A stretch of DNA of 8,566 nucleotides from a virus (taxonomy: Duplodnaviria; Heunggongvirae; Uroviricota; Caudoviricetes), in IMG/VR virus record IMGVR_UViG_2671180710_000015. One strand, given 5' to 3'. The translations under genes were made by a program, and so were the position numbers. Positions 1,869 to 8,566 of this stretch are shown here, piece by piece (position 1 is the stretch's first letter; every line of letters begins with the position of its first letter). The notes beneath the pieces were generated by a model. That model was not told the origin of the DNA, searched no databases, and worked only from the letters and a program-made list of their open reading frames with translations.

Positions 1869-2063
1869 TTATTCCTCACCTGTTGCAATGCCCAGGCGTT
1901 CGCGTAACAGCACGCGAGCAAGATGGCCTACTGTTGGCGTGGCGGCTCTGCCGTATATACCAGCTTCATTCATCCGGCGAATAACATCGAATTGAAGTTT
2001 TTTAAGCTCGTTTAGGATCTCGTGATCAATCATCACGGTAGCGCTTTGCTTTATCTGTTCCAC
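1869..2063 (-). CDS. small hypothetical protein (64 aa), GTG start
   Basis: Track ORF. Start codon is GTG (plus 2061-2063 cac) preceded by a consensus AGGAGG SD 7 nt upstream. First gene of the leftward late operon. Confidence 0.6.
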   Translation of the reverse strand: MEQIKQSATVMIDHEILNELKKLQFDVIRRMNEAGIYGRAATPTVGHLARVLLRERLGIATGEE

Positions 2064-3119: not shown

Positions 3120-3315
3120 ACCTCTCACTTTTTCGCCTCACTTTTTCAAGCGTCTCACTTCGTCGCAGTTGGGATTTTCGGTTTTTCTATGTGTGTGTTT
3201 CATAAGTATTTTTTTACCCCCTCACTTTTGAGGATGTATACAGGTCGAAAAGTGAGGGAGAGCGGGCTAATTTTGGCCCTCTTTCTATCCCCCTCGCTTT
3301 TGCTCCTCACTTTTA
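3120..3315. repeat. iteron-type replication origin (seven CCTCACTTTT-like repeats plus AT-rich tract)
   Basis: CTCACTT cores at 3124, 3137, 3154, 3221 and 3306; inverted copy AAGTGAG at 3250; variant CTCGCTT at 3293. AT-rich tract about 3182-3218. Lies immediately 3' of the rep gene. Confidence 0.6.
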
Positions 3316-4710
3316 TAGCGGCGCTACATCATCCCCATCGATACGAATAACCCCATCTTTTTCCAGCTTGTACAGCCAGCGCCGGAAGTTTTTCATTTCA
3401 TACCCCAGCTTTTTCATGTCATCACGTAACAGCGGGATCGTGCACTTGTCGCCGTTCTGTGTGCGTGAACGGATGCACCCCCATAGCGCGGTATGGTTTT
3501 CCGTCTTGTTCCCTGCCTCCTCGATGCGCTCCAGTTCAACAGGAGGGCGCGGATCATCCACCACCACCAGCGACGTGATTAATTCACCGTCAGCGTCGGT
3601 AAAAAGCTCCACCACGCGTAAGTCATATGCGGCTTCTTTGAGTTCCTCCGCGTCCTTCATTTTGGTGCATGAGATAACCAGCGCTTCGCTTCCTGCGTCC
3701 TCCCTGCGTATCCGGTATTCAGCATCCAGCGAAGCACGAAATGCACTGGAACCGCGCGCGCCTTTCGTCTCATCCTTGCCGGAATGGTGAACCACCAGCA
3801 CCGTGGCCCCTGTGCGTCGTTTAAGCTCGTCACAACCACGGATAAACGCCCCCATATCACGGGAATCATTTTCATCATTCCCACCAAAGCAACGCGCCAG
3901 AGTATCCAGAATAATCATGCGTACAGGTTTACCCGTTTCCCGCTCCACCTGACGGGCAGCGATAACCATTTCATCAACATCAAGCGGGGCAGCCGGAAAG
4001 ATGGGACGGTTTACCAGATACAGATTTTTCACCTGTTCACCGTGCACAACCTCCCAGGCTTTTACACGACGCGGAACGCCGATACCGCCTTCACCAACCA
4101 CATAGAGAACCGCACCATGCGCCACCCTGCGGCCTCCCCACTGGCGGCCCGTGGAAACGTGACACGCCCACGATCCGGCAAGGAATGATTTATAGGAACC
4201 GCTCGCCCCGTATATGCTGCAAAGCGATACCGCCGGAATAATTCCCTTCACCACGTAATCAAGCTGCGTGTCGTATCCGGCAGATCCCACGCTCATTGGT
4301 AGCTTGGTTTTTCGCTGGTGGCTCAGGCTTTCCCCGCGTTCCCATGTCTCCCTAAGCCGTGGAAGCTGGTCGCTCCATTCCTCCAGCAATTCGAAATTTT
4401 CAGAAAACAGGCGCGCTTCCTGGACTCCTGCGATTGCCAGTTTCGTGGCGATGGTTAACAACTGCACTTCGTCAATATTTCCGGCACGTATCACTTTCGC
4501 CCTGTATCGCCCATCATCCACAATCTGGAGGTTATCCAGTTCGCTTAACTGATAACGCCCCAGGTAAACGGGAGGGACTGGATCGCCTGCTTTTTTGGCC
4601 TGTGCAATGATGTAGTACTCTGCAAATGAGTGAGCATTATCACCCGCAAAAATAACCGCTTCGGTGTGTTTATCTTTCGGTAACAGTTTTACGTTCGGTG
4701 CCAGTTTCAT
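3313..4710 (-). CDS. replication initiator/helicase (RecA-fold AAA_25, DnaB/RepA-like) with winged-helix-like C-terminus
   Basis: 465 aa. Walker A GASGSYKS, Walker B-like MIILDTLARCF, LVVHHSGKDETKGARGSSA. Not P4 alpha-like: no SF3, toprim or zinc-finger motifs seen. ATGA overlap with the upstream 99-aa ORF. Confidence 0.85.
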   Translation of the reverse strand: MKLAPNVKLLPKDKHTEAVIFAGDNAHSFAEYYIIAQAKKAGDPVPPVYLGRYQLSELDNLQIVDDGRYRAKVIRAGNIDEVQLLTIATKLAIAGVQEARLFSENFELLEEWSDQLPRLRETWERGESLSHQRKTKLPMSVGSAGYDTQLDYVVKGIIPAVSLCSIYGASGSYKSFLAGSWACHVSTGRQWGGRRVAHGAVLYVVGEGGIGVPRRVKAWEVVHGEQVKNLYLVNRPIFPAAPLDVDEMVIAARQVERETGKPVRMIILDTLARCFGGNDENDSRDMGAFIRGCDELKRRTGATVLVVHHSGKDETKGARGSSAFRASLDAEYRIRREDAGSEALVISCTKMKDAEELKEAAYDLRVVELFTDADGELITSLVVVDDPRPPVELERIEEAGNKTENHTALWGCIRSRTQNGDKCTIPLLRDDMKKLGYEMKNFRRWLYKLEKDGVIRIDGDDVAPL

Positions 4711-5006
4711 TTTTTACCCCTGAATCCGTTAATCATGGTTTTCAGCTTCTGGATGTTTTCCCGTGCTCTGGCGTTGCTGGTGGGCACGTTATGCGGCGCG
4801 GTCTGTACCAGAGAAAAATCACGCCGGAACTGATAAACAGGCATCACGCAATCATATTCGTAACCTTCACGGCGGTAAGTTACGCACCGTCCCGCCACGC
4901 CCTTAATCATTACCGTGCCGCCGTACTGGTCGCGGTAAATATCACCGCGCGTAAATTTAGGGTGAGTGTTGCCACTGGCAGTTAAGCCAGAATATTTAAG
5001 TTTCAT
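4707..5006 (-). CDS. hypothetical protein (99 aa) coupled to rep
   Basis: Track ORF. GGAGA SD 9 nt upstream of ATG 5004-5006; its stop overlaps the rep start. No family recognised. Confidence 0.55.
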   Translation of the reverse strand: MKLKYSGLTASGNTHPKFTRGDIYRDQYGGTVMIKGVAGRCVTYRREGYEYDCVMPVYQFRRDFSLVQTAPHNVPTSNARARENIQKLKTMINGFRGKK

Positions 5007-5011
5007 TATTT

Positions 5012-5239
5012 TTATTCTCCGGTGTGGGGCGCTTTATTATTTTCGATAATATCCATTGCCTTATCCAGTTCATCAATAACAGGCGATAGTAATGTCTGAA
5101 TGGCTGCAAACATTAATGACGAAGATTCTTCGCCAGATTCCGGCACTTCAATTAATTTGCCTAACAACGCATTCATTTCCTTTGCGCGGATTAATGCGTT
5201 TTCAGAATGAATAAGAACATCAAAGGGTATTTTATGCAT
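5012..5239 (-). CDS. hypothetical protein (75 aa)
   Basis: Track ORF, G-rich SD; 8-nt overlap with the upstream ORF and 5-nt gap to the downstream ORF. Predicted helical, acidic. Confidence 0.5.
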   Translation of the reverse strand: MHKIPFDVLIHSENALIRAKEMNALLGKLIEVPESGEESSSLMFAAIQTLLSPVIDELDKAMDIIENNKAPHTGE

Positions 5240-5429
5240 GACTCACCCCCTGGCGAATACGGGCGGCGAATACAGCAACACAACCGGACGGGCAACGGCT
5301 ACGCGCTTCGCGTTCCGTCCAGGCGGTTACGTGGATGATTTGAGATTCTCCGGCACTCAGTGCCAGAAAACGCCACACAAAGGCCGTTTGTGTGTGTGCT
5401 AGTCGTGGGGTATGATTTACGGCAACCAT
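5232..5429 (-). CDS. hypothetical protein (65 aa), first ORF of the rep operon
   Basis: Track ORF with AGAGAGG SD 7 nt upstream. Contains an 8-bp hairpin (CACACAAA-ggccg-TTTGTGTG, 5374-5394), so a structured leader RNA is an alternative reading. Confidence 0.35.
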   Translation of the reverse strand: MVAVNHTPRLAHTQTAFVWRFLALSAGESQIIHVTAWTEREARSRCPSGCVAVFAARIRQGVSHA

Positions 5430-5502
5430 AAATTTACCTCTCTATAGTGTTTGTGGTTAGACGCCCTGCATGTGTTCCAGCACTGTGGGGCGTTGTTTTT
5501 TG

Positions 5503-5547
5503 GTGCAAGTCACCTTGAAATCTAGGTTACTTTTAGGTGACTTGCAC
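5503..5547. promoter_or_regulatory. paired operator-like sites: 12-bp perfect inverted repeat GTGCAAGTCACC-N21-GGTGACTTGCAC
   Basis: Arms at 5503-5514 and 5536-5547 are exact reverse complements. Each arm is itself GGTG-N5-CACC-like. Located in the divergent region between the rep operon and the plus-strand RHH gene. Confidence 0.45.
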
Positions 5548-5574
5548 TTCAAGTCTTTTTTTATTTTTTTTTCT
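5539..5574 (+). terminator. terminator-like hairpin plus long T-tract (alternatively an UP element or insulator)
   Basis: GACTTG-cactt-CAAGTC (5539-5555) followed by T8-A-T10 (5556-5574). It overlaps the right operator arm and sits just upstream of a TATACT -10 (5578-5583). Confidence 0.3.
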
Positions 5575-5613
5575 CCGTATACTGAACACCACCTAACAGT
5601 AAGGAGAACAGAG

Positions 5614-5793
5614 ATGCCAACAGGTACAACCAACAACAAGTCACAACAAAAAACTGCTAGAGTACCTCTAGACGTTTTAAGCGAAATGAATTTGGTAAAA
5701 GAAGAAAACGAAACAGACGCACAATTTATCGTTACTGCCATGCGCGGCGAAATCAAACGCCGCCAGCGTCGCAAGGCCAAAGAATCAGAATAA
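5614..5793 (+). CDS. small ribbon-helix-helix-like DNA-binding protein (59 aa)
   Basis: Hand-defined start: AAGGAG SD (5601-5606) 7 nt before ATG 5614. MPTGTTNNKSQQKTARVPLDVLSEMNLVKEENETDAQFIVTAMRGEIKRRQRRKAKESE shows a strand-helix-turn-helix pattern. The 107-aa track ORF is an N-terminal over-extension across the operator and T-tract. Confidence 0.5.
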   Translation: MPTGTTNNKSQQKTARVPLDVLSEMNLVKEENETDAQFIVTAMRGEIKRRQRRKAKESE

Positions 5794-5850
5794 TCACTAT
5801 CAGCGCCGTGGTGTGAGGTACTACGGCGCATTGCTTTACAGGGCAGTACC

Positions 5851-6078
5851 ATGACCAACAACACACTATCACCAATACAAGACACGCAAACGCAAGATGA
5901 TGAAATCATCCGGCAAAGGCAGTCAGAAGCCTGCGCCAGACTTGAGGAAGAACTAACCAGAACAAAAATACCACCACCAGCGCCGCGCTTAGTGCCACCA
6001 GAAAAATTTGCCCTTGAAGATTTTGTCGATAAATACCCACGGCGGCTTAAATCCGGCAAAAACCGACCGCCAGGATGA
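5851..6078 (+). CDS. hypothetical protein (75 aa), acidic N-terminus, Pro-rich basic C-terminus
   Basis: Track ORF. Weak SD; preceded by hairpin GCGCCGT-N13-ACGGCGC (5803-5829) and followed by hairpin GAAACGG-attatt-CCGTTTC (6098-6117). No family recognised. Confidence 0.4.
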   Translation: MTNNTLSPIQDTQTQDDEIIRQRQSEACARLEEELTRTKIPPPAPRLVPPEKFALEDFVDKYPRRLKSGKNRPPG

Positions 6079-6297
6079 GTGCACAAAACCGAACTATGAA
6101 ACGGATTATTCCGTTTCCGGGGCGTTTGTGTGTGTATAAAGAGTAAGCTATGCTCTTTTATAGCCATAATCGTTACCTCAATTAATGGTTTGGTTAGAAG
6201 CCCGTTGGTGTTCATAGCGCCAGCGGGCTTTGCTTTTTGTGTTGATTGTGTGTAATATGTCACTACACATAAATACATTACATGAGGTGTAATTAAC

Positions 6298-6477
6298 ATG
6301 TCAATACACAAAAACGAAAGGCGTGGTAATCCTCCGTTCCAGTTCCGTTTAGATCCTGACTTACGGGAAAAGATGGAAAAGGCACAACAACATGACGGCG
6401 ATGATTCTCTTGCTGCCTGGATAAAGCGAATAATCCGCAAAGAATTACAGCAACGCGGCATAGAACCCAAAGGGTAA
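6298..6477 (+). CDS. Arc/MetJ-type ribbon-helix-helix DNA-binding protein (59 aa), below ORF-track cutoff
   Basis: Hand-translated: MSIHKNERRGNPPFQFRLDPDLREKMEKAQQHDGDDSLAAWIKRIIRKELQQRGIEPKG; PFQFRLDP strand plus two helices is the classic Arc-like pattern. GAGGTG SD; candidate promoter TTGCTT-N17-TAATAT (6230-6258); GTGTAAT repeats at 6250 and 6287. Confidence 0.6.
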   Translation: MSIHKNERRGNPPFQFRLDPDLREKMEKAQQHDGDDSLAAWIKRIIRKELQQRGIEPKG

Positions 6478-6565
6478 TTACATTGCCCACCAGCCTGATA
6501 GCGGCTATCATTCCCGTGCTTATGTTTGGGATCACATAAGGCGCAGCAGGTTAATTGTTCACAAG

Positions 6566-6594
6566 GGCGTTCCGGCAACGGGGCGCTTTTTGTT
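6566..6594 (+). terminator. intrinsic terminator (GNRA tetraloop hairpin plus U-run) closing the plus-strand module
   Basis: 9-bp stem GGCGTTCCG / CGGGGCGCT with three G-U wobbles, GCAA loop (6575-6578), then TTTTTGTT. Sits 28 nt from the convergent alpA stop. Confidence 0.5.
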
Positions 6595-6621
6595 ATGTTC
6601 ATCGTGTTATGCCTCACACCA

Positions 6622-6828
6622 TTACGCAGCCGTTCCGCGTGCTTCCTGCTCACGTTCTTTCATCCATGCGATTACGTCTTCCTCATACCATCCGCGACGG
6701 CGTAAACCAACGCGAAAACCCTGCGGAAATTCTCCGGCGTTGATCATGCTTTGAAGCGTGCTGTCTGCCTTGATGTGGATAAGTTTTTTTACTTCCTGGC
6801 GAAAGATGACTTTTTTGATTGCTTCCAT
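6622..6828 (-). CDS. alpA: AlpA-family phage transcriptional regulator
   Basis: 68 aa; STLQSMINAGEFPQGFRVGLRRRGWYEEDVIAWM matches the AlpA HTH family pattern. AAGG SD. Co-directional with int as in Gram-negative PICIs. Confidence 0.85.
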   Translation of the reverse strand: MEAIKKVIFRQEVKKLIHIKADSTLQSMINAGEFPQGFRVGLRRRGWYEEDVIAWMKEREQEARGTAA

Positions 6829-7324: not shown

Positions 7325-8566
7325 CTAAACGGCTCGGATACCCCTTTTACCACTGGCGAGGGTTACGCCCGTCGCCGCAGCCTCGACAAATTCGCCCCAC
7401 CAGCGCATAAGCACCACGCGTTTTTCTATGTAGTTGCTCCGGTTGTATGCCCGTCTCACTTCGTTAGTGTCGACGTGGGCAAGTGCGGCCTCGATTACGT
7501 CCGGCTCGAATCCTTCCTCGTTCGCTGCTGTACTGAATATGGCGCGTAATCCATGAGACACCAGCACGCCAGCGAACCCCATGCGTCGTAATGCTGCGTT
7601 TGCTGTCTGGCTGTTCATTGGCTGCCGTGGGTCTTTCAGACTCGGGAAAACATAATCGCGGTGGTGGCTGATTGGTTTCATGGCCTCCAGCACCGCCATA
7701 GCCTGACCGGAAAGTGGGATAACGTGATCCCTGCGCATCTTCATGCGTCCGGCGGGTATCGTCCAGCGTTGCGCGTCCAGGTCGATTTCATCCCACCGCG
7801 TTGATGACGCTTCGGCGGGACGGGTTACGGTCAGTAACTGCCATTCAATCAGTAATCTGGTCTGCCGTTCTGTTGCCGATACTGATAAAGCCTGCATAAG
7901 CTCCGGCAACTGTTCGGGGCGGATTGTTGGCATATGTTTTTTTACAGGGGAGGGGAACGCCTTACGCACATTCATAGCCGGATTGGCATCAATCAGCCCA
8001 CTGTTGGCGGCGTAATCCATTACCTCATTAACGCGCTGTAAAACCCGTTTGAGTGTTTCCAGGTTGCCGCGCTCCTTGATGGGGGTAAGCACCTCAACGA
8101 ACCTGCGAGCGGTCAGGGTGTCTATTGGGGTGTTGCCGATGAACGGGAATACATATTTATCCAGCGATCGCCAGATGTCTTTAATCGTGTTGGGGGCCAG
8201 ATTCTGGCTGATTTTCACCTGGTACCATGCCGCCGCCACATTTTCGAACGTGTTCCCTTGTCTTCGGGCCTCTGCCTCTCGTTTTTTCTTCTCATGGCCC
8301 TGCGGGTCAGTTCCGGCACTGATTAACGCTCTGTACTCGCTACGGCGTTTTCTGGCATCAGCCAGGGAAACATCATCAAGCGATCCAAAACTCAGCAATA
8401 TTCTTTTTTTGTCCGATGGCCGGTAGTAGGAAAATCGCCAGAGTTTTGATCCGGACGGTTTGACCAGGAGAAAAAGCCCTCCGCCGTCCTGTAGGGTGTA
8501 TTCCTTTTCCGCTGGTCTGGCTGCTTTGATCTGCACCGTGGTTAATGGGGGTGTTTTTCTCGCCAT
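7325..8566 (-). CDS. int: tyrosine-type site-specific integrase, P4-like
   Basis: 413 aa. N-terminus MARKTPPLTTVQIKAARPAEKEYTLQDGGGLFLLVKPSGSKLWRFSYY matches the P4-integrase arm-binding pattern; C-terminal HGLRAIFSTAA and RRAYNRSNY carry the His/Arg box and catalytic Tyr. ATG is the last codon of the window, so an upstream start cannot be excluded. Confidence 0.9.
   Translation of the reverse strand: MARKTPPLTTVQIKAARPAEKEYTLQDGGGLFLLVKPSGSKLWRFSYYRPSDKKRILLSFGSLDDVSLADARKRRSEYRALISAGTDPQGHEKKKREAEARRQGNTFENVAAAWYQVKISQNLAPNTIKDIWRSLDKYVFPFIGNTPIDTLTARRFVEVLTPIKERGNLETLKRVLQRVNEVMDYAANSGLIDANPAMNVRKAFPSPVKKHMPTIRPEQLPELMQALSVSATERQTRLLIEWQLLTVTRPAEASSTRWDEIDLDAQRWTIPAGRMKMRRDHVIPLSGQAMAVLEAMKPISHHRDYVFPSLKDPRQPMNSQTANAALRRMGFAGVLVSHGLRAIFSTAANEEGFEPDVIEAALAHVDTNEVRRAYNRSNYIEKRVVLMRWWGEFVEAAATGVTLASGKRGIRAV

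What the first reader, a model, noticed from the sequence alone, without database searches (positions are those of the whole stretch)
6298..6477. Unlisted 59-aa Arc-type RHH gene with repeat-bearing promoter
This ORF falls below the track cutoff yet has a good SD, a TTGCTT-N17-TAATAT promoter candidate and a textbook Arc-like beta-strand plus two-helix pattern. GTGTAAT direct repeats (6250, 6287) and inverted ATTACA (6277) flank the promoter, consistent with autoregulatory operator half-sites.
Basis: seen in the sequence. Interest (0 to 1): 0.5.

Follow-up and report, generated by a model that had tools for sequence, protein, structure and literature searches.

The report
Arc-like repressor at a satellite's switch
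The 59-codon ORF is a real, widely conserved Arc-like DNA-binding protein gene at the on/off control region of a phage satellite (a capsid-forming PICI related to P4), and it may be the repressor that has not yet been identified for Gram-negative PICIs.

Summary

- **The gene is real.** It has 112 homologue clusters and 139 genomic loci across Enterobacterales, Orbales, Pasteurellales and Aeromonadales. pN/pS is 0.14 in frame.
- **It is ribbon-helix-helix.** It matches PHROG 228 'Arc-like repressor' at E=4e-6, its remote relatives hit Pfam RHH families, and the AF2 helix pair matches NikR/Arc/CopG.

1. The gene's first three codons (ATGTCAA) form a perfect TTGACA -35 on the opposite strand. 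With N17/18-TAnnnT this gives a leftward promoter in 59/67 loci, facing the RHH promoter and pointing into a Kil/Icd-like gene and the primase operon. One operator copy lies in its spacer and another over the RHH -10/+1. Operator sequence changes with the protein's beta-strand subfamily.
2. A covariation-supported antisense sRNA of about 78 nt lies just upstream. It covers the Kil/Icd-like RBS, and its terminator tail supplies the RHH -35.
3. The whole region is nested antisense in a long ORF that is kept open from alpA to the Kil/Icd-like gene, like P4 eta/kil.

Best reading: it represses the early promoter and autoregulates. DNA binding and repression are inferred, not shown.

The parts
6298..6477 (+). 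RHH59: 59-aa ribbon-helix-helix (Arc-like) protein gene. Predicted beta-strand is around residues 13-18 (PFQFRL), helix A is 20-33, the turn is G34-D-D-S37 and helix B is 38-52.
   Evidence: The ORF is shown. It has 112 homologue clusters and 139 loci. pN/pS is 0.139. PHROG 228 matches at E=4e-6.
6284..6289 (+). Shine-Dalgarno-like GAGGTG. It overlaps the left edge of operator copy O2.
   Evidence: Read from the sequence. Homologues carry GGGTG or GAGTG at the same place.
6230..6258 (+). P_RHH, the rightward promoter. TTGCTT (6230-6235), 17 nt, TAATAT (6253-6258). Predicted start is near 6265. The -35 lies in the U-tract of the upstream terminator.
   Evidence: Read from the sequence. The arrangement is conserved in 65/70 loci. 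It was not listed by the generic scanner.
6250..6268 (.). O1: imperfect inverted repeat GTGTAATA-TGT-CACTACAC. In most relatives it is the perfect TGTAATG-TGT-CATTACA. It covers the -10 and +1 of P_RHH and +1 to +18 of the leftward transcript.
   Evidence: The region from -47 to -27 is near-invariant in subfamily A.
6275..6304 (-). P_left, the leftward promoter. A perfect TTGACA on the minus strand (6299-6304) is the complement of RHH codons 1-3, then 18 nt, then TAATGT (plus-strand ACATTA, 6275-6280). Predicted start is near 6268. It points into the Kil/Icd-like gene and the primase operon.
   Evidence: TTGACA is present in 62/67 loci and TTGACA-N17/18-TAnnnT in 59/67. Codon 2 is TCA in 70/72 genes, against 22% TCA at other Ser codons. 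Promoter-like sites cluster at this position.
6287..6297 (.). O2: GTGTAATTAAC, the second operator copy. It lies inside the -35/-10 spacer of P_left and over the SD of RHH59. With 6294-6314 it forms the second unit of the 21-nt direct repeat.
   Evidence: In subfamilies B and C the cognate palindromes GGTAATTACC and GTGTCnGACAC occupy the same spacer.
6160..6239 (+). Copy 2 of the cis-antisense sRNA-like element. Its promoter is TTGTGT (6126-6131), N17, TATGCT (6149-6154). Stem-loop 1 (6171-6187) has a CCUC anti-SD loop and stem-loop 2 (6197-6231) is a terminator followed by a U-tract. It is antisense to a relic Kil/Icd-like 5' end whose ATG is at 6165-6167 on the minus strand.
   Evidence: Covariation is. 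G.U against A.C counts give the strand. Fold z-score is -6.2 on the plus strand against -2.3 on the minus strand. The R1 model scores 72 bits.
5422..5500 (+). Copy 1 of the cis-antisense sRNA-like element. Its promoter is TTGTGT (5388-5393), N17, TATGAT (5411-5416). It is complementary to the SD and start codon of the intact Kil/Icd-like gene.
   Evidence: 68 bits; z -4.3. There is a weak Rfam symR-like hit at 5424-5497, E=0.16, below threshold.
5232..5429 (-). 65-aa Kil/Icd-like gene, first gene of the leftward replication operon. It belongs to the same NCBIfam family as P4 Kil.
   Evidence: NF033153 scores 64.8 bits here and 76.1 bits for P4 Kil.
5457..6653 (-). Long antisense ORF of 398 codons. 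It starts inside the 3' end of alpA, runs through the RHH59, orf75 and YlcI genes, both sRNA copies and all intergenic DNA, and stops 28 nt before the Kil/Icd-like ATG. It is the counterpart of P4 eta.
   Evidence: The ORF is. The same frame is open across the RHH gene in 56/75 genes, against a synonymous-resampling mean of 24 and maximum of 34. It is open in the flanks in 55/75 and 50/75 loci, against 0-18 in the other frames. It starts next to the alpA stop.
6622..6828 (-). AlpA/Vis-like HTH gene, convergent with RHH59 and upstream of the long ORF.
   Evidence: Pfam Phage_AlpA at E=0.003. PHROG 66 and 2790, excisionase/regulator. A homologous convergent ORF is present in 41 loci.
6563..6597 (+). 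Terminator-like hairpin with a U-tract downstream of RHH59.
5614..5793 (+). YlcI/YnfO-family 59-aa paralogue-like gene, a distant relative of RHH59. In the closest E. coli element it is the only gene at this position.
   Evidence: NF041551 scores 59.7 bits. RHH59 itself reaches only 17.6 bits on this model.

Best explanation
RHH59 is a small dimeric ribbon-helix-helix repressor at the early-control (immunity) switch of a P4-related satellite, here a capsid-forming PICI of E. coli.

**Layout.** Two sigma-70 promoters face each other with start points about 3 nt apart.
- P_RHH is weak and points rightward: TTGCTT-N17-TAATAT.
- P_left is strong and points leftward. Its perfect -35 TTGACA is the complement of the RHH gene's first three codons. 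It reads into the Kil/Icd-like gene and the primase/replication operon, so it is the counterpart of P4 PLE.

**Proposed action (inferred).** The protein binds two copies of a subfamily-specific repeat. O2 lies in the -35/-10 spacer of P_left. O1 lies over the -10 and +1 of P_RHH, which is also the first 20 nt of the leftward transcript. Binding at O2 would shut P_left and so free P_RHH from promoter competition. Binding at O1 would limit the protein's own synthesis.

**Second layer (inferred).** An antisense sRNA of about 78 nt made just upstream pairs with the RBS and start codon of the Kil/Icd-like gene on any leaky leftward transcript. Its terminator tail supplies the P_RHH -35.

**Induction (inferred by analogy with P4).** On induction by a helper phage, transcription from the AlpA-activated promoter would enter from the right. 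Ribosomes would translate the long eta-like ORF that starts at the end of alpA and is kept open across the whole region. That would carry expression through into the replication genes.

**Shown and not shown.** Shown here are gene reality, RHH class, conservation and positions of both promoters, repeats that change with protein subfamily, the RNA structure and its strand, and the open antisense frame. DNA binding, repression, the start points, sRNA expression and the anti-termination role of the long ORF are all inferred.
For: **Real protein.** pN/pS is 0.139 and codon-position variation is 26/16/51. Length stays at 56-60 aa across four orders.

**RHH class.**
- PHROG 228 'Arc-like repressor', E=4e-6.
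- Remote relatives hit HicB (8 members, best E=4.5e-7), RHH_1 (7, best 5.9e-5), NikA-like, TacA1, Omega and others.
- In-register hhalign to Arc and Mnt.
- AF2 helices at pLDDT about 92, with the Foldseek list dominated by NikR, Arc, CopG, PutA and AmrZ at rmsd about 0.8 A.

**Variable reading head on a constant body.** The beta-strand and helix A differ between subfamilies (PPFQFRL, PQYQMRL, DQYQIRL, PQFPMRL, KQIALRV). Helix B and the tail (WIKRIIRKELQxRGIEPKG) are conserved at protein level only, with pS about 0.8 between groups.

**Operators change with subfamily.** The motifs are TGTAATG/CATTACA, GGTAATTACC, TGTAATTACA, GGTATATACC and GTGTCAnACAC. Each occurs twice, at about -40 and abutting the start codon.

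**Footprint and promoters.**
- Positions -47 to -1 are invariant next to a free -60 to -48.
- P_RHH is found in 65/70 loci.
- P_left, TTGACA-N17/18-TAnnnT, is found in 59/67 loci with O2 in its spacer.
- Codon 2 is TCA in 70/72 genes, against 22% elsewhere.

**Context.** The gene is divergent from a Kil/Icd-like gene and convergent with alpA. Kil/Icd-like matches the family of P4 Kil.

**sRNA.** 93% of cells are paired, 15/19 pairs show compensatory changes and 0/500 shuffles reach this. G.U outnumbers A.C by 124 to 8. A conserved -10 is present.

**Long ORF.**

**Literature.** A global repressor of Gram-negative PICIs is stated to be unclear (PMC6092414). P4 eta/kil/CI logic is summarised in PMC10111431.
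Against: - There is no experimental evidence of any kind. Binding, start points and expression are all predicted.
- Direct Pfam and PDB sequence searches give nothing significant. Foldseek E-values are 0.75 or worse because the protein is tiny. A dimer could not be modelled.
- In subfamily A, two of the 'operator' repeats are also the -10 hexamers of the two promoters. Symmetry there could partly reflect promoter mirror symmetry rather than protein binding.
- P_left in subfamily A has a poor -10 (TAATGT, 3/6) with an 18-nt spacer.
- In this window, P_left points first into a relic Kil/Icd-like 5' end. About 0.8 kb (orf75 and YlcI, antisense) lies between it and the intact Kil/Icd-like gene. 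The module here may be partly redundant with the YlcI module, and the closest E. coli element has only YlcI.
- The low pN/pS of the antisense frame (0.31) is expected from frame geometry, so it does not show that the long ORF encodes a functional protein.
Confidence: 0.6

Rival explanations
1. An autoregulated RHH regulator whose real job is to control variable cargo genes downstream of it on the plus strand, or simply itself. It would have no role in the satellite's early operon.
For: - The region downstream of the gene is highly variable.
- In several loci (L004, L008, L018, L055) a small signal-peptide or lipoprotein-like ORF follows within a few nt on the same strand. In L002 and O157:H7 an orf75-like gene follows.
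- O1 overlaps the gene's own -10.
Against: - In the window, and in many loci, the gene is followed by a terminator or by the convergent alpA, with no plus-strand partner. No plus-strand ORF is conserved.
- This reading does not explain why O2 always falls in the spacer of a conserved leftward TTGACA promoter.
- It does not explain why the gene is always placed divergently from the Kil/Icd-like gene.
Confidence: 0.15
2. An interference or cross-talk factor. The RHH would bind helper-phage or host promoters, for example to repress helper genes. The local repeats would serve only for autoregulation.
For: - Satellites often carry regulators aimed at the helper phage. CapR of PLE is cited as one such case in PMC10111431.
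- Several specificity types exist on a constant body, which could track different helpers.
Against: - No external target was looked for or found.
- The specificity types track the local operator sequences one-to-one, which is what a self-contained immunity module predicts.
Confidence: 0.1
3. An RHH antitoxin of a type II toxin-antitoxin pair. Some sources label relatives 'HicB'.
For: - There are weak hits to VapB (E=0.011) and to HicB and TacA1 among members and relatives.
- JGI names some members 'predicted HicB family'.
- A 2026 survey lists HicB among satellite accessory genes (PMC13612085).
Against: - No toxin gene is adjacent in the window.
- No plus-strand partner ORF is conserved across 80 loci.
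- The matched part of HicB and TacA1 is only their RHH DNA-binding domain.
- The protein has no C-terminal toxin-binding extension. The RHH domain ends about 7 residues before the C-terminus.
Confidence: 0.04
4. Not a gene. The ORF would be a by-product of the long antisense ORF or of the regulatory DNA.
For: A long ORF covers it on the other strand. PGAP skips the gene in O157:H7.
Against: - pN/pS is 0.139 in frame with saturated synonymous sites.
- Length and start position are conserved.
- It has an RHH profile and a confident helix-pair model.
- The antisense translation is Cys-rich and low in complexity, with no family hit except the terminal Icd-like part.
Confidence: 0.02

Closest known systems
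Phage P22 immI region: Arc and Mnt RHH repressors, Pant/Pmnt and sar antisense RNA (from my own knowledge of the Sauer, Susskind and McClure work; not re-read here)
   Same: - A small RHH repressor of about 53-83 aa, in-register sequence similarity and a PHROG 'Arc-like repressor' hit.
- An operator placed inside a strong promoter.
- Closely apposed opposing promoters, so that repressing the strong one favours the weak one.
- A small antisense RNA covering the RBS of the first gene of the repressed operon.
   Different: - The protein is not in Pfam Arc.
- The repressed operon starts with a Kil/Icd-like gene and a primase, not an antirepressor.
- The two promoters here are predicted to face each other with start points about 3 nt apart.
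- The -35 of the strong promoter is built from the repressor's own first codons.
- The whole module is nested antisense in a long ORF.
- The element is a satellite, not a phage.
Satellite phage P4 immunity region: vis, PLL/PLE, nested eta/kil and CI RNA (Forti et al. 1999, J Bacteriol 181:5225, listed but not held; summarised in PMC10111431)
   Same: - Same gene order: int, alpA/vis, a long ORF overlapping the end of alpA/vis, and a 65-aa Kil/Icd-like terminal gene (NF033153 in both), then primase.
- An internal early promoter upstream of kil.
- An RNA that targets kil translation.
- A long ORF whose translation plausibly carries transcription through.
   Different: - P4 uses a same-strand processed RNA: C4/CI at 8420-8507(-), plus isrK and a1b1 targets. 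It has no RHH59 homologue (tblastn).
- The window has no C4 or isrK match. It has instead an opposite-strand sRNA, absent from P4, plus the RHH gene.
- The leader is 1.2 kb here against 0.6 kb in P4.
- BLASTP does not align the two Kil proteins directly.
Plasmid pMV158 copy control: CopG (45-aa RHH) plus antisense RNA II (from my own knowledge)
   Same: A minimal RHH transcriptional repressor and a short antisense RNA act on the same replication-gene transcript, one on initiation of transcription and the other on translation.
   Different: CopG is co-transcribed with its target repB and represses their shared promoter. Here the RHH gene is on the opposite strand, facing the target promoter. 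No sequence family link was detected beyond the RHH clan.
YlcI/YnfO (DUF3950, NF041551) small prophage proteins
   Same: The same size of 59 aa, and the same slot in related elements (window 5614-5793; the only occupant in E. coli CD45). There is weak profile similarity: E=0.003, and 7/44 members hit DUF3950.
   Different: RHH59 is below the curated cutoff (17.6 against 30 bits). hhalign to the window's YlcI is not significant (P=0.17). YlcI here lacks the TTGACA-N17/18-TAnnnT arrangement, judged by reading. No function is published for YlcI/YnfO.
SaPI Stl / Gram-positive PICI Rpr master repressors
   Same: The proposed role: a satellite-encoded repressor next to int, divergent from the replication operon, that keeps the island silent (PMC6092414).
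   Different: Stl proteins are much larger HTH proteins that are relieved by binding helper proteins. Here induction is known to go through the activator AlpA, and the RHH would be a second, local layer. There is no homology.

Membership tests
Ribbon-helix-helix (MetJ/Arc) superfamily | N-terminal beta-strand with alternating hydrophobic residues, then helix A, a G-x-(S/T/N)-type turn and helix B, all in about 45 residues | tested here: met
   - The strand pattern is P-F-Q-F-R-L.
- AF2 gives helices 20-33 and 38-52 at pLDDT about 92, joined by the turn G34-D-D-S37. The strand is unstructured in the monomer model, as expected for an RHH.
- R17, G34, W41, K43, R44, R47, E49 and L50 are invariant in both family alignments.
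- hhalign is in register with Arc and Mnt.
Ribbon-helix-helix (MetJ/Arc) superfamily | Significant profile match to a curated RHH family | tested here: met
   - PHROG 228 'Arc-like repressor' matches at E=4e-6, 27.7 bits.
- No Pfam family reaches threshold directly.
- Relatives retrieved by the family profile at E<1e-3 from 1.8 billion proteins hit HicB (best 4.5e-7), RHH_1 (5.9e-5), NikA-like, TacA1, RHH_5/7/9/10 and Omega.
Ribbon-helix-helix (MetJ/Arc) superfamily | Fold similarity to solved RHH structures | tested here: inconclusive
   The Foldseek PDB list is almost entirely RHH proteins (NikR, Arc, CopG, CopA, PutA, AmrZ, MazE9, ParD), at rmsd 0.6-1.0 A over 33-39 residues. The best E-value is 0.75, because only a helix hairpin of a monomer is compared.
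Ribbon-helix-helix (MetJ/Arc) superfamily | Obligate homodimer with an intertwined two-stranded beta-ribbon that reads the major groove | not testable with these tools
No multimer or DNA-complex prediction is available.
Ribbon-helix-helix (MetJ/Arc) superfamily | Repeated or palindromic operator near the regulated promoter | tested here: met
   Two copies occur per locus at fixed positions, and the motif type changes with the beta-strand subfamily. Physical binding was not tested.
Arc family proper (Pfam PF03869) | Match to the Arc family model | tested here: not met
   PF03869 does not appear among the hits for the protein (E up to 1) or its 44 relatives (E up to 10). Only pairwise hhalign gives P=0.0012 to the Arc sequence.
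YlcI/YnfO family (NF041551 / Pfam DUF3950) | Score above the curated cutoff of the family model | tested here: not met
   17.6 bits against a cutoff of 30. 7/44 members hit DUF3950, best E=3.3e-4. hhalign to the window's own YlcI gives P=0.17.
Type II antitoxin (RHH class: HicB, VapB, TacA, ParD) | Co-transcribed adjacent toxin gene and a toxin-binding extension | tested here: not met
   No conserved plus-strand neighbour is found in 80 loci. A terminator or the convergent alpA follows. The predicted fold ends about 7 residues before the C-terminus.
P4-type left-operon leader (vis, then eta/kil) | AlpA/Vis gene followed by a long ORF that overlaps its end | tested here: met
   In the window, alpA is 6622-6828(-) and the ORF is 5457-6653(-). 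In P4, vis is 8764-9030 and eta is 8168-8812. The frame starts within about -20 to +32 nt of the alpA stop in most loci where alpA is adjacent.
P4-type left-operon leader (vis, then eta/kil) | Long ORF ends in, or abuts, a 65-aa Kil/Icd-like gene | tested here: met
   NF033153 scores 64.8 bits in the window and 76.1 bits for P4 Kil. The two are fused in frame in O157:H7 (L082 2043-2987). In the window the ORF stops 28 nt before the ATG.
P4-type left-operon leader (vis, then eta/kil) | Same-strand CI (C4-family) immunity RNA with seqA/seqC targets | tested here: not met
   Rfam C4, isrK and c4-a1b1 are found in P4. None is found in the window at E<=1.

The most novel reading that the evidence does not exclude
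RHH59 and its relatives would be the missing maintenance repressor of many Gram-negative PICIs, cf-PICIs and P4-like satellites. It would be one part of a three-layer switch packed into about 400 bp:

1. An Arc-like repressor whose own first codons form the -35 of the promoter it represses.
2. A cis-antisense sRNA over the Kil/Icd-like RBS.
3. A long eta-like ORF kept open on the opposite strand across the repressor gene, its operators and the sRNA. AlpA-driven, translation-coupled transcription could then override both other layers.

In this reading the module is an alternative cassette to P4's CI RNA. It would come in at least five immunity specificities that could define satellite incompatibility or immunity groups.
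Probability: 0.4. Interest if true: 0.75.

Novelty: new variant of a known kind. Interest (0 to 1): 0.6.

Why it matters
**An open question becomes testable.** For Gram-negative PICIs, only the activator AlpA is known. [quoted passage not shown] Later surveys list these small genes only as accessory 'HicB' or 'YlcI/YnfO' proteins (PMC13612085).

**A concrete candidate.** A conserved Arc-like repressor with its own operators sits in the spacer of the promoter that leads into the replication operon. This gives a specific hypothesis for how these islands stay silent and for what sets their specificity.

**An extreme case of overlapping information.** One DNA stretch of 6230-6314 carries all of the following:
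- two facing promoters;
- two operators;
- a terminator tail;
- an SD and a start codon;
- an open reading frame on the other strand.

**An annotation error in important genomes.** In E. coli O157:H7, RefSeq misses the gene and calls a pseudogene on the wrong strand.

**Possible use.** cf-PICIs are being developed as delivery vehicles, and the switch that controls their induction is relevant to that work.

Tried and rejected
- **Direct sequence searches.** Pfam and PDB searches with the protein and with a 44-member profile gave nothing significant. The top hits (TraI_middle, Mistic, RNF169, NsrR) are noise.
- **Known RNA families.** Rfam on the whole window at E<=1 gave only a sub-threshold symR-like hit at 5424-5497 and a spurious snoRNA. 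There was no C4 or isrK.
- **Toxin-antitoxin reading.** Rejected, because no conserved partner gene exists.
- **Heptamer repeat alone.** Rejected as evidence, because 44/200 shuffles match it. The longest-common-substring test between the O1 and O2 zones is only modest for the window itself (7 nt against a shuffle mean of 5.2 and a maximum of 9). It is informative only across loci (mean 7.2 against 5.0).
- **Inverted repeat 6228-6242 / 6306-6320 (I1).** Judged to be chance pairing of a T-rich with an A-rich stretch, because -60 to -48 is not conserved.
- **An RNA hairpin in the RHH leader as the reason for the O2 symmetry.** Judged unlikely. The subfamily-B palindrome GGTAATTACC cannot form a stable hairpin, and O1 lies upstream of the predicted start.
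- **First pN/pS run.** It was wrong because three sequences with a 1-codon insertion were out of register. It was redone.
- **Kil comparison.** BLASTP and tblastn of the Kil/Icd-like protein against P4 Kil and against phages found no direct alignment. The link rests on the shared NCBIfam model.
- **Literature.** Searches found no paper on this protein family, on YlcI/YnfO function or on an RHH in PICIs. Forti et al. 1999 could not be read.
Full report
**1. The observation**

The ORF runs from ATG 6298 to TAA 6475-6477 and encodes 59 aa: MSIHKNERRGNPPFQFRLDPDLREKMEKAQQHDGDDSLAAWIKRIIRKELQQRGIEPKG.
- GAGG at 6284-6287.
- TTGCTT at 6230-6235, then 17 nt, then TAATAT at 6253-6258.
- GTGTAAT at 6250 and 6287.
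- ATTACA at 6277.

The promoter is weak by consensus (7/12), and the generic scanner did not list it. Two copies of a heptamer in 8.5 kb is not unusual, since 44 of 200 shuffles match it. The local pattern is nonetheless far from random:
- All five TGTAAT sites of the window lie in 6251-6482.
- The heptamers head a 21-nt direct repeat, 6253-6273 and 6294-6314, 86% identical.

**2. The gene is real and widespread**

A search of 5.8 billion proteins returned 112 clusters. Almost all are 55-60 aa, and they are named 'hypothetical', 'phage protein' or, by JGI, 'HicB family'.

A scan of one genome per species confirmed 139 loci. I kept 80, from Enterobacterales, Orbales (Gilliamella, Frischella), Pasteurellales and Aeromonadales (Oceanisphaera, Oceanimonas).

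Among 34 non-identical subfamily-A genes, variable sites by codon position are 26/16/51 of 54. pN/pS is 0.139. Three of the other five frames give 0.96 or more, and the antisense frame whose third positions coincide gives 0.31. Synonymous sites are saturated (pS about 0.8), so the conservation is selection on the protein and not recent spread.

**3. It is a ribbon-helix-helix protein**

- **Direct searches are mostly silent.** Pfam and PDB sequence searches give nothing significant. PHROG 228 'Arc-like repressor' does match, at E=4e-6 over residues 6-57.
- **Remote relatives are RHH.** A profile of the family, searched with HMMER against 1.84 billion representatives, found 48 proteins at E<1e-3. 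Scanned individually, these hit HicB (8 members, best 4.5e-7), RHH_1 (7), NikA-like (6), TacA1 (4), RHH_5/7/9/10, Omega repressor and CopG_antitoxin. All of these are RHH families or RHH domains, by my knowledge of the Pfam MetJ/Arc clan.
- **Register with Arc and Mnt.** hhalign aligns the family in register with Arc (P=0.0012; PPFQFRL against PQFNLRW) and with Mnt (P=0.0021, 41 columns).
- **Structure model.** AF2 with a 44-sequence alignment gives a disordered N-terminus and two helices, 20-33 and 38-52, at pLDDT about 92. An RHH monomer is expected to look like this, because the strand forms only in the dimer.
- **Fold search.** The Foldseek PDB list is almost entirely RHH proteins at rmsd about 0.8 A. 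The E-values (0.75 or worse) are not significant for so small a query.
- **Dimer.** A dimer model could not be made.

I therefore place the protein in the RHH superfamily. It is 'Arc-like' by PHROG, but it is not in Pfam Arc. It also falls below the cutoff of the YlcI/YnfO family, to which it is distantly related.

**4. Specificity subfamilies and matching operators**

The C-terminal half, DGDxSLAxWIKRIIRKELQxRGIEPKG, is nearly constant across all loci at protein level only. Between-group pS is about 0.8 and pN about 0.17. The beta-strand and helix A fall into types, each with its own DNA motif:

| Beta-strand type | Motif |
|---|---|
| PPFQFRL (the window) | TGTAATG-N3-CATTACA and GTGTAATT |
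| QPFQLRL / APFQLRL | not assigned |
| PQYQMRL / PPFQMRL | GGTAATTACC |
| DQYQIRL / KQYQMRL | TGTAATTACA |
| PQFPMRL | GGTATATACC |
| KQIA(L/F)RV | GTGTCAnACAC |

Each motif is present twice at the same two places: about 40 nt upstream of the start codon, and abutting or overlapping it.

In 31 non-identical subfamily-A loci, positions -47 to -1 are almost invariant while -60 to -48 are free. A variable reading head paired with a matching change in a duplicated nearby motif is the comparative signature of a repressor with its own operators.

**5. Two facing promoters**

TTGnnn-N16-18-TAnnnT occurs in 65/70 loci, with the -10 ending 35-41 nt before the start.

The opposite strand holds a better promoter. 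The conserved ATGTCAA at the start of the gene reads TTGACA on the minus strand, a perfect -35, in 62/67 non-identical loci. A TAnnnT follows at 17-18 nt in 59/67. The constraint is at nucleotide level:
- Codon 2 is TCA in 70/72 genes, although TCA makes up only 22% of other Ser codons in the same genes.
- Codon 3 starts with A in 70/72.

In the window this promoter is TTGACA (6304-6299), N18, TAATGT (6280-6275). The predicted start is near 6268, going left. P_RHH should start near 6265, going right. The two polymerases would occupy overlapping DNA.

In every subfamily the start-proximal operator copy (O2) lies inside the -35/-10 spacer of the leftward promoter. The distal copy (O1) covers the -10 and +1 of P_RHH and the first 20 nt of the leftward transcript.

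In subfamily A, the repeats at 6250 and 6277 are also the two -10 hexamers. This is a caveat on reading them purely as operator half-sites.

**6. What the leftward promoter serves**

The window is a capsid-forming-PICI-like element of E. coli. The best match covers 87% of the window at 92% identity. Its gene order is:

| Gene | Coordinates (strand) |
|---|---|
| int | 7325-8566 (-) |
| alpA-like | 6622-6828 (-) |
| RHH59 | 6298-6477 (+) |
| orf75 | 5851-6078 (+) |
| YlcI/YnfO | 5614-5793 (+) |
| Icd-like | 5232-5429 (-) |
| DUF4222 | 4707-5006 (-) |
| primase/helicase | 3313-4710 (-) |
| ssb, perC-like, terS, major capsid | further left (-) |

In most of the 80 loci, the RHH gene is directly divergent from a gene that starts ATGGCT about 130 nt away. 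It is convergent with an alpA-like gene about 145 nt downstream. Where recognisable, the divergent gene is Icd-like.

The 65-aa Icd-like protein and the 65-aa P4 Kil both match NCBIfam NF033153, at 64.8 and 76.1 bits against a cutoff of 25. The leftward promoter is therefore the positional counterpart of P4 PLE.

**7. An antisense sRNA next door**

Between the Icd-like start codon and P_RHH lies a conserved element with four parts:
- a stem-loop whose loop carries CCUC, the anti-SD of the Icd-like gene;
- UGGUUAGA;
- a GC-rich hairpin;
- a U-tract.

On 68 sequences, 93.4% of cells are paired and 15 of 19 pairs show changes on both sides. No shuffle of 500 reaches this, and slid controls pair at about 40%.

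G.U pairs outnumber A.C by 124 to 8 in the terminator stem and by 20 to 7 in stem 1, so the RNA is on the plus strand. The plus-strand folds give z = -4.3 and -6.2, against -1.7 and -2.3 for the minus strand.

A TAnnnT ends exactly 10 nt before the complement of the Icd-like ATG in most loci. This predicts an RNA of about 78 nt, fully complementary to the Icd-like RBS and start codon.

Its U-tract contains the -35 of P_RHH. A covariance model finds two copies in the window (5426-5502 and 6164-6239), two in L001, one in O157:H7 and none in P4. Rfam has no family for it. The only hit is a symR-like match at E=0.16.

Copy 2 lies over a relic Icd-like 5' end (MAIKEHSLLFIHTQT, compared with MVAVNHTPRLAHTQT). 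The window therefore carries a duplicated, mosaic control region. The closest E. coli element has only the YlcI module.

**8. A long ORF kept open on the other strand**

The minus-strand ORF 5457-6653 is 398 codons long. It starts inside the end of alpA and runs antisense through RHH59, orf75, YlcI, both sRNAs and all the spacers. It stops 28 nt before the Icd-like ATG.

This is a family trait:

| Region | Loci or genes with no stop in this frame | Comparison |
|---|---|---|
| Inside the RHH gene | 56/75 | synonymous resampling: mean 24, maximum 34 of 200 |
| 115 nt upstream of the RHH start | 55/75 | other two frames: 0 and 18 |
| 100 nt downstream of the RHH stop | 50/75 | other two frames: 10 and 7 |

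In many loci the frame either fuses with the Icd-like gene or stops just before its start codon (read by eye in one example). O157:H7 is a fusion, with 314 codons at L082 2043-2987. Where alpA is adjacent, the frame begins within about -20 to +32 nt of the alpA stop in most loci.

The translation looks like junk, and its only family hit is the terminal Icd-like part.

This matches P4. There, eta (8168-8812) overlaps vis (8764-9030) and ends in kil. According to Forti et al. 1999, translation of eta prevents Rho-dependent termination of transcripts from the upstream promoter. That paper is summarised in PMC10111431 and listed, but I could not read it.

The role of the ORF here is inferred by that analogy only.

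**9. Mechanism proposed**

- **Silent state.** The RHH binds O2 and O1 and blocks P_left. This relieves P_RHH of competition until O1 is filled. The antisense sRNA neutralises leaky leftward transcripts at the Kil/Icd-like RBS.
- **Induced state.** Helper-triggered AlpA activates its own promoter (PMC6092414). Transcripts coupled to translation of the long ORF then cross the RHH gene, operators and sRNA region into the replication genes, colliding with P_RHH on the way.

The anatomy is shown here. Every functional step is inference.

Compared with P4, the same-strand CI RNA with its C4 and isrK elements is replaced by an opposite-strand sRNA plus a protein repressor.

**10. Rivals and novelty**

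- A toxin-antitoxin role is excluded by the lack of a partner gene.
- A cargo-regulator role is possible in loci with a downstream plus-strand ORF, but it does not explain the position of O2.
- A trans role on the helper phage cannot be excluded.

The RHH identity itself is ordinary, since PHROGs already has an Arc-like family that catches it. The architecture and the proposed role were not found in the literature I could search. The question they address is stated as open.

I rate it a new variant of a known kind, with interest 0.6.

Noticed in passing
window 5422-5500 (+) and 6160-6239 (+): There are two copies of a conserved two-hairpin element of about 78 nt, with its own promoter-like -10. 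It is antisense to the RBS and start codon of the Kil/Icd-like gene. It has strong covariation support and plus-strand G.U bias, and no Rfam family matches it.
   Followed up: yes
window 5457-6653 (-): A 398-codon ORF lies antisense to RHH59, orf75, YlcI and all the spacers between them. The same frame is kept open in most homologous loci, starts at the end of alpA and ends at or in the Kil/Icd-like gene. This resembles P4 eta/kil.
   Followed up: yes
window 6100-6167 (-): A relic of a second Kil/Icd-like 5' end (MAIKEHSLLFIHTQT...) lies in frame with the long ORF. It shows that the RHH59 module was joined to a YlcI-type module by recombination or duplication.
   Followed up: partly
L082 2371-2544 (+) (E. 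coli O157:H7 F8797, NZ_CP038353.1): An intact subfamily-B RHH gene (57 aa, operators GGTAATTACC twice) is not annotated in RefSeq. PGAP instead calls an 'Icd-like' pseudogene on the opposite strand (2394-2987).
   Followed up: yes
window 6483-6597 (+); L082 2780-2900: A promoter-like TTGCCC-N17-TATCAT (6483-6511) is followed by a terminator-like hairpin (6563-6590). The whole segment is conserved in O157:H7 next to the alpA stop. It could be another small transcript, or the 5' part of the long ORF.
   Followed up: no
window 6474-6482: The palindrome GTAATTAC overlaps the RHH59 stop codon, just upstream of the -35 of the promoter-like site at 6483. With the site at 6444-6449 it completes a cluster of five TGTAAT sites. 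It could be a third operator. It is not conserved in other loci.
   Followed up: no
window 5503-5580 (+): Upstream of the YlcI/YnfO gene there is an inverted repeat with 13-nt arms (GTGCAAGTCACCT ... AGGTGACTTGCAC), followed by a long T-run. It could be an operator or a second terminator for that module.
   Followed up: no
L084 (E. coli CD45) 6255-6434; window 5614-5793: The closest E. coli element has only a YlcI/YnfO gene in the slot between the Icd-like gene and alpA. YlcI/YnfO and RHH59 therefore look like interchangeable occupants of one regulatory position.
   Followed up: partly
L004, L008, L018, L055, just after the RHH stop (about 5181-5330): In several loci a small ORF with a signal-peptide or lipoprotein-like N-terminus (for example MKKIIILAAVLIVAAFLLKSC...) starts within a few nt of the RHH stop, on the same strand.
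   Followed up: no
window 5803-5829 (+); L002 and L082, after the RHH stop: The same terminator-like hairpin plus an orf75-like gene follows YlcI in the window, but follows the RHH gene in Shigella L002 and in O157:H7. The plus-strand cassettes are shuffled as modules.
   Followed up: partly
window 1869-2063 (-): A 64-aa ORF (…ATVMIDHEILNELKKLQ…GRAATPTVGHLARVLLRERL…) also has a strand-helix-helix look by eye. It has no PHROG hit at E<=0.01 and was not tested further.
   Followed up: no
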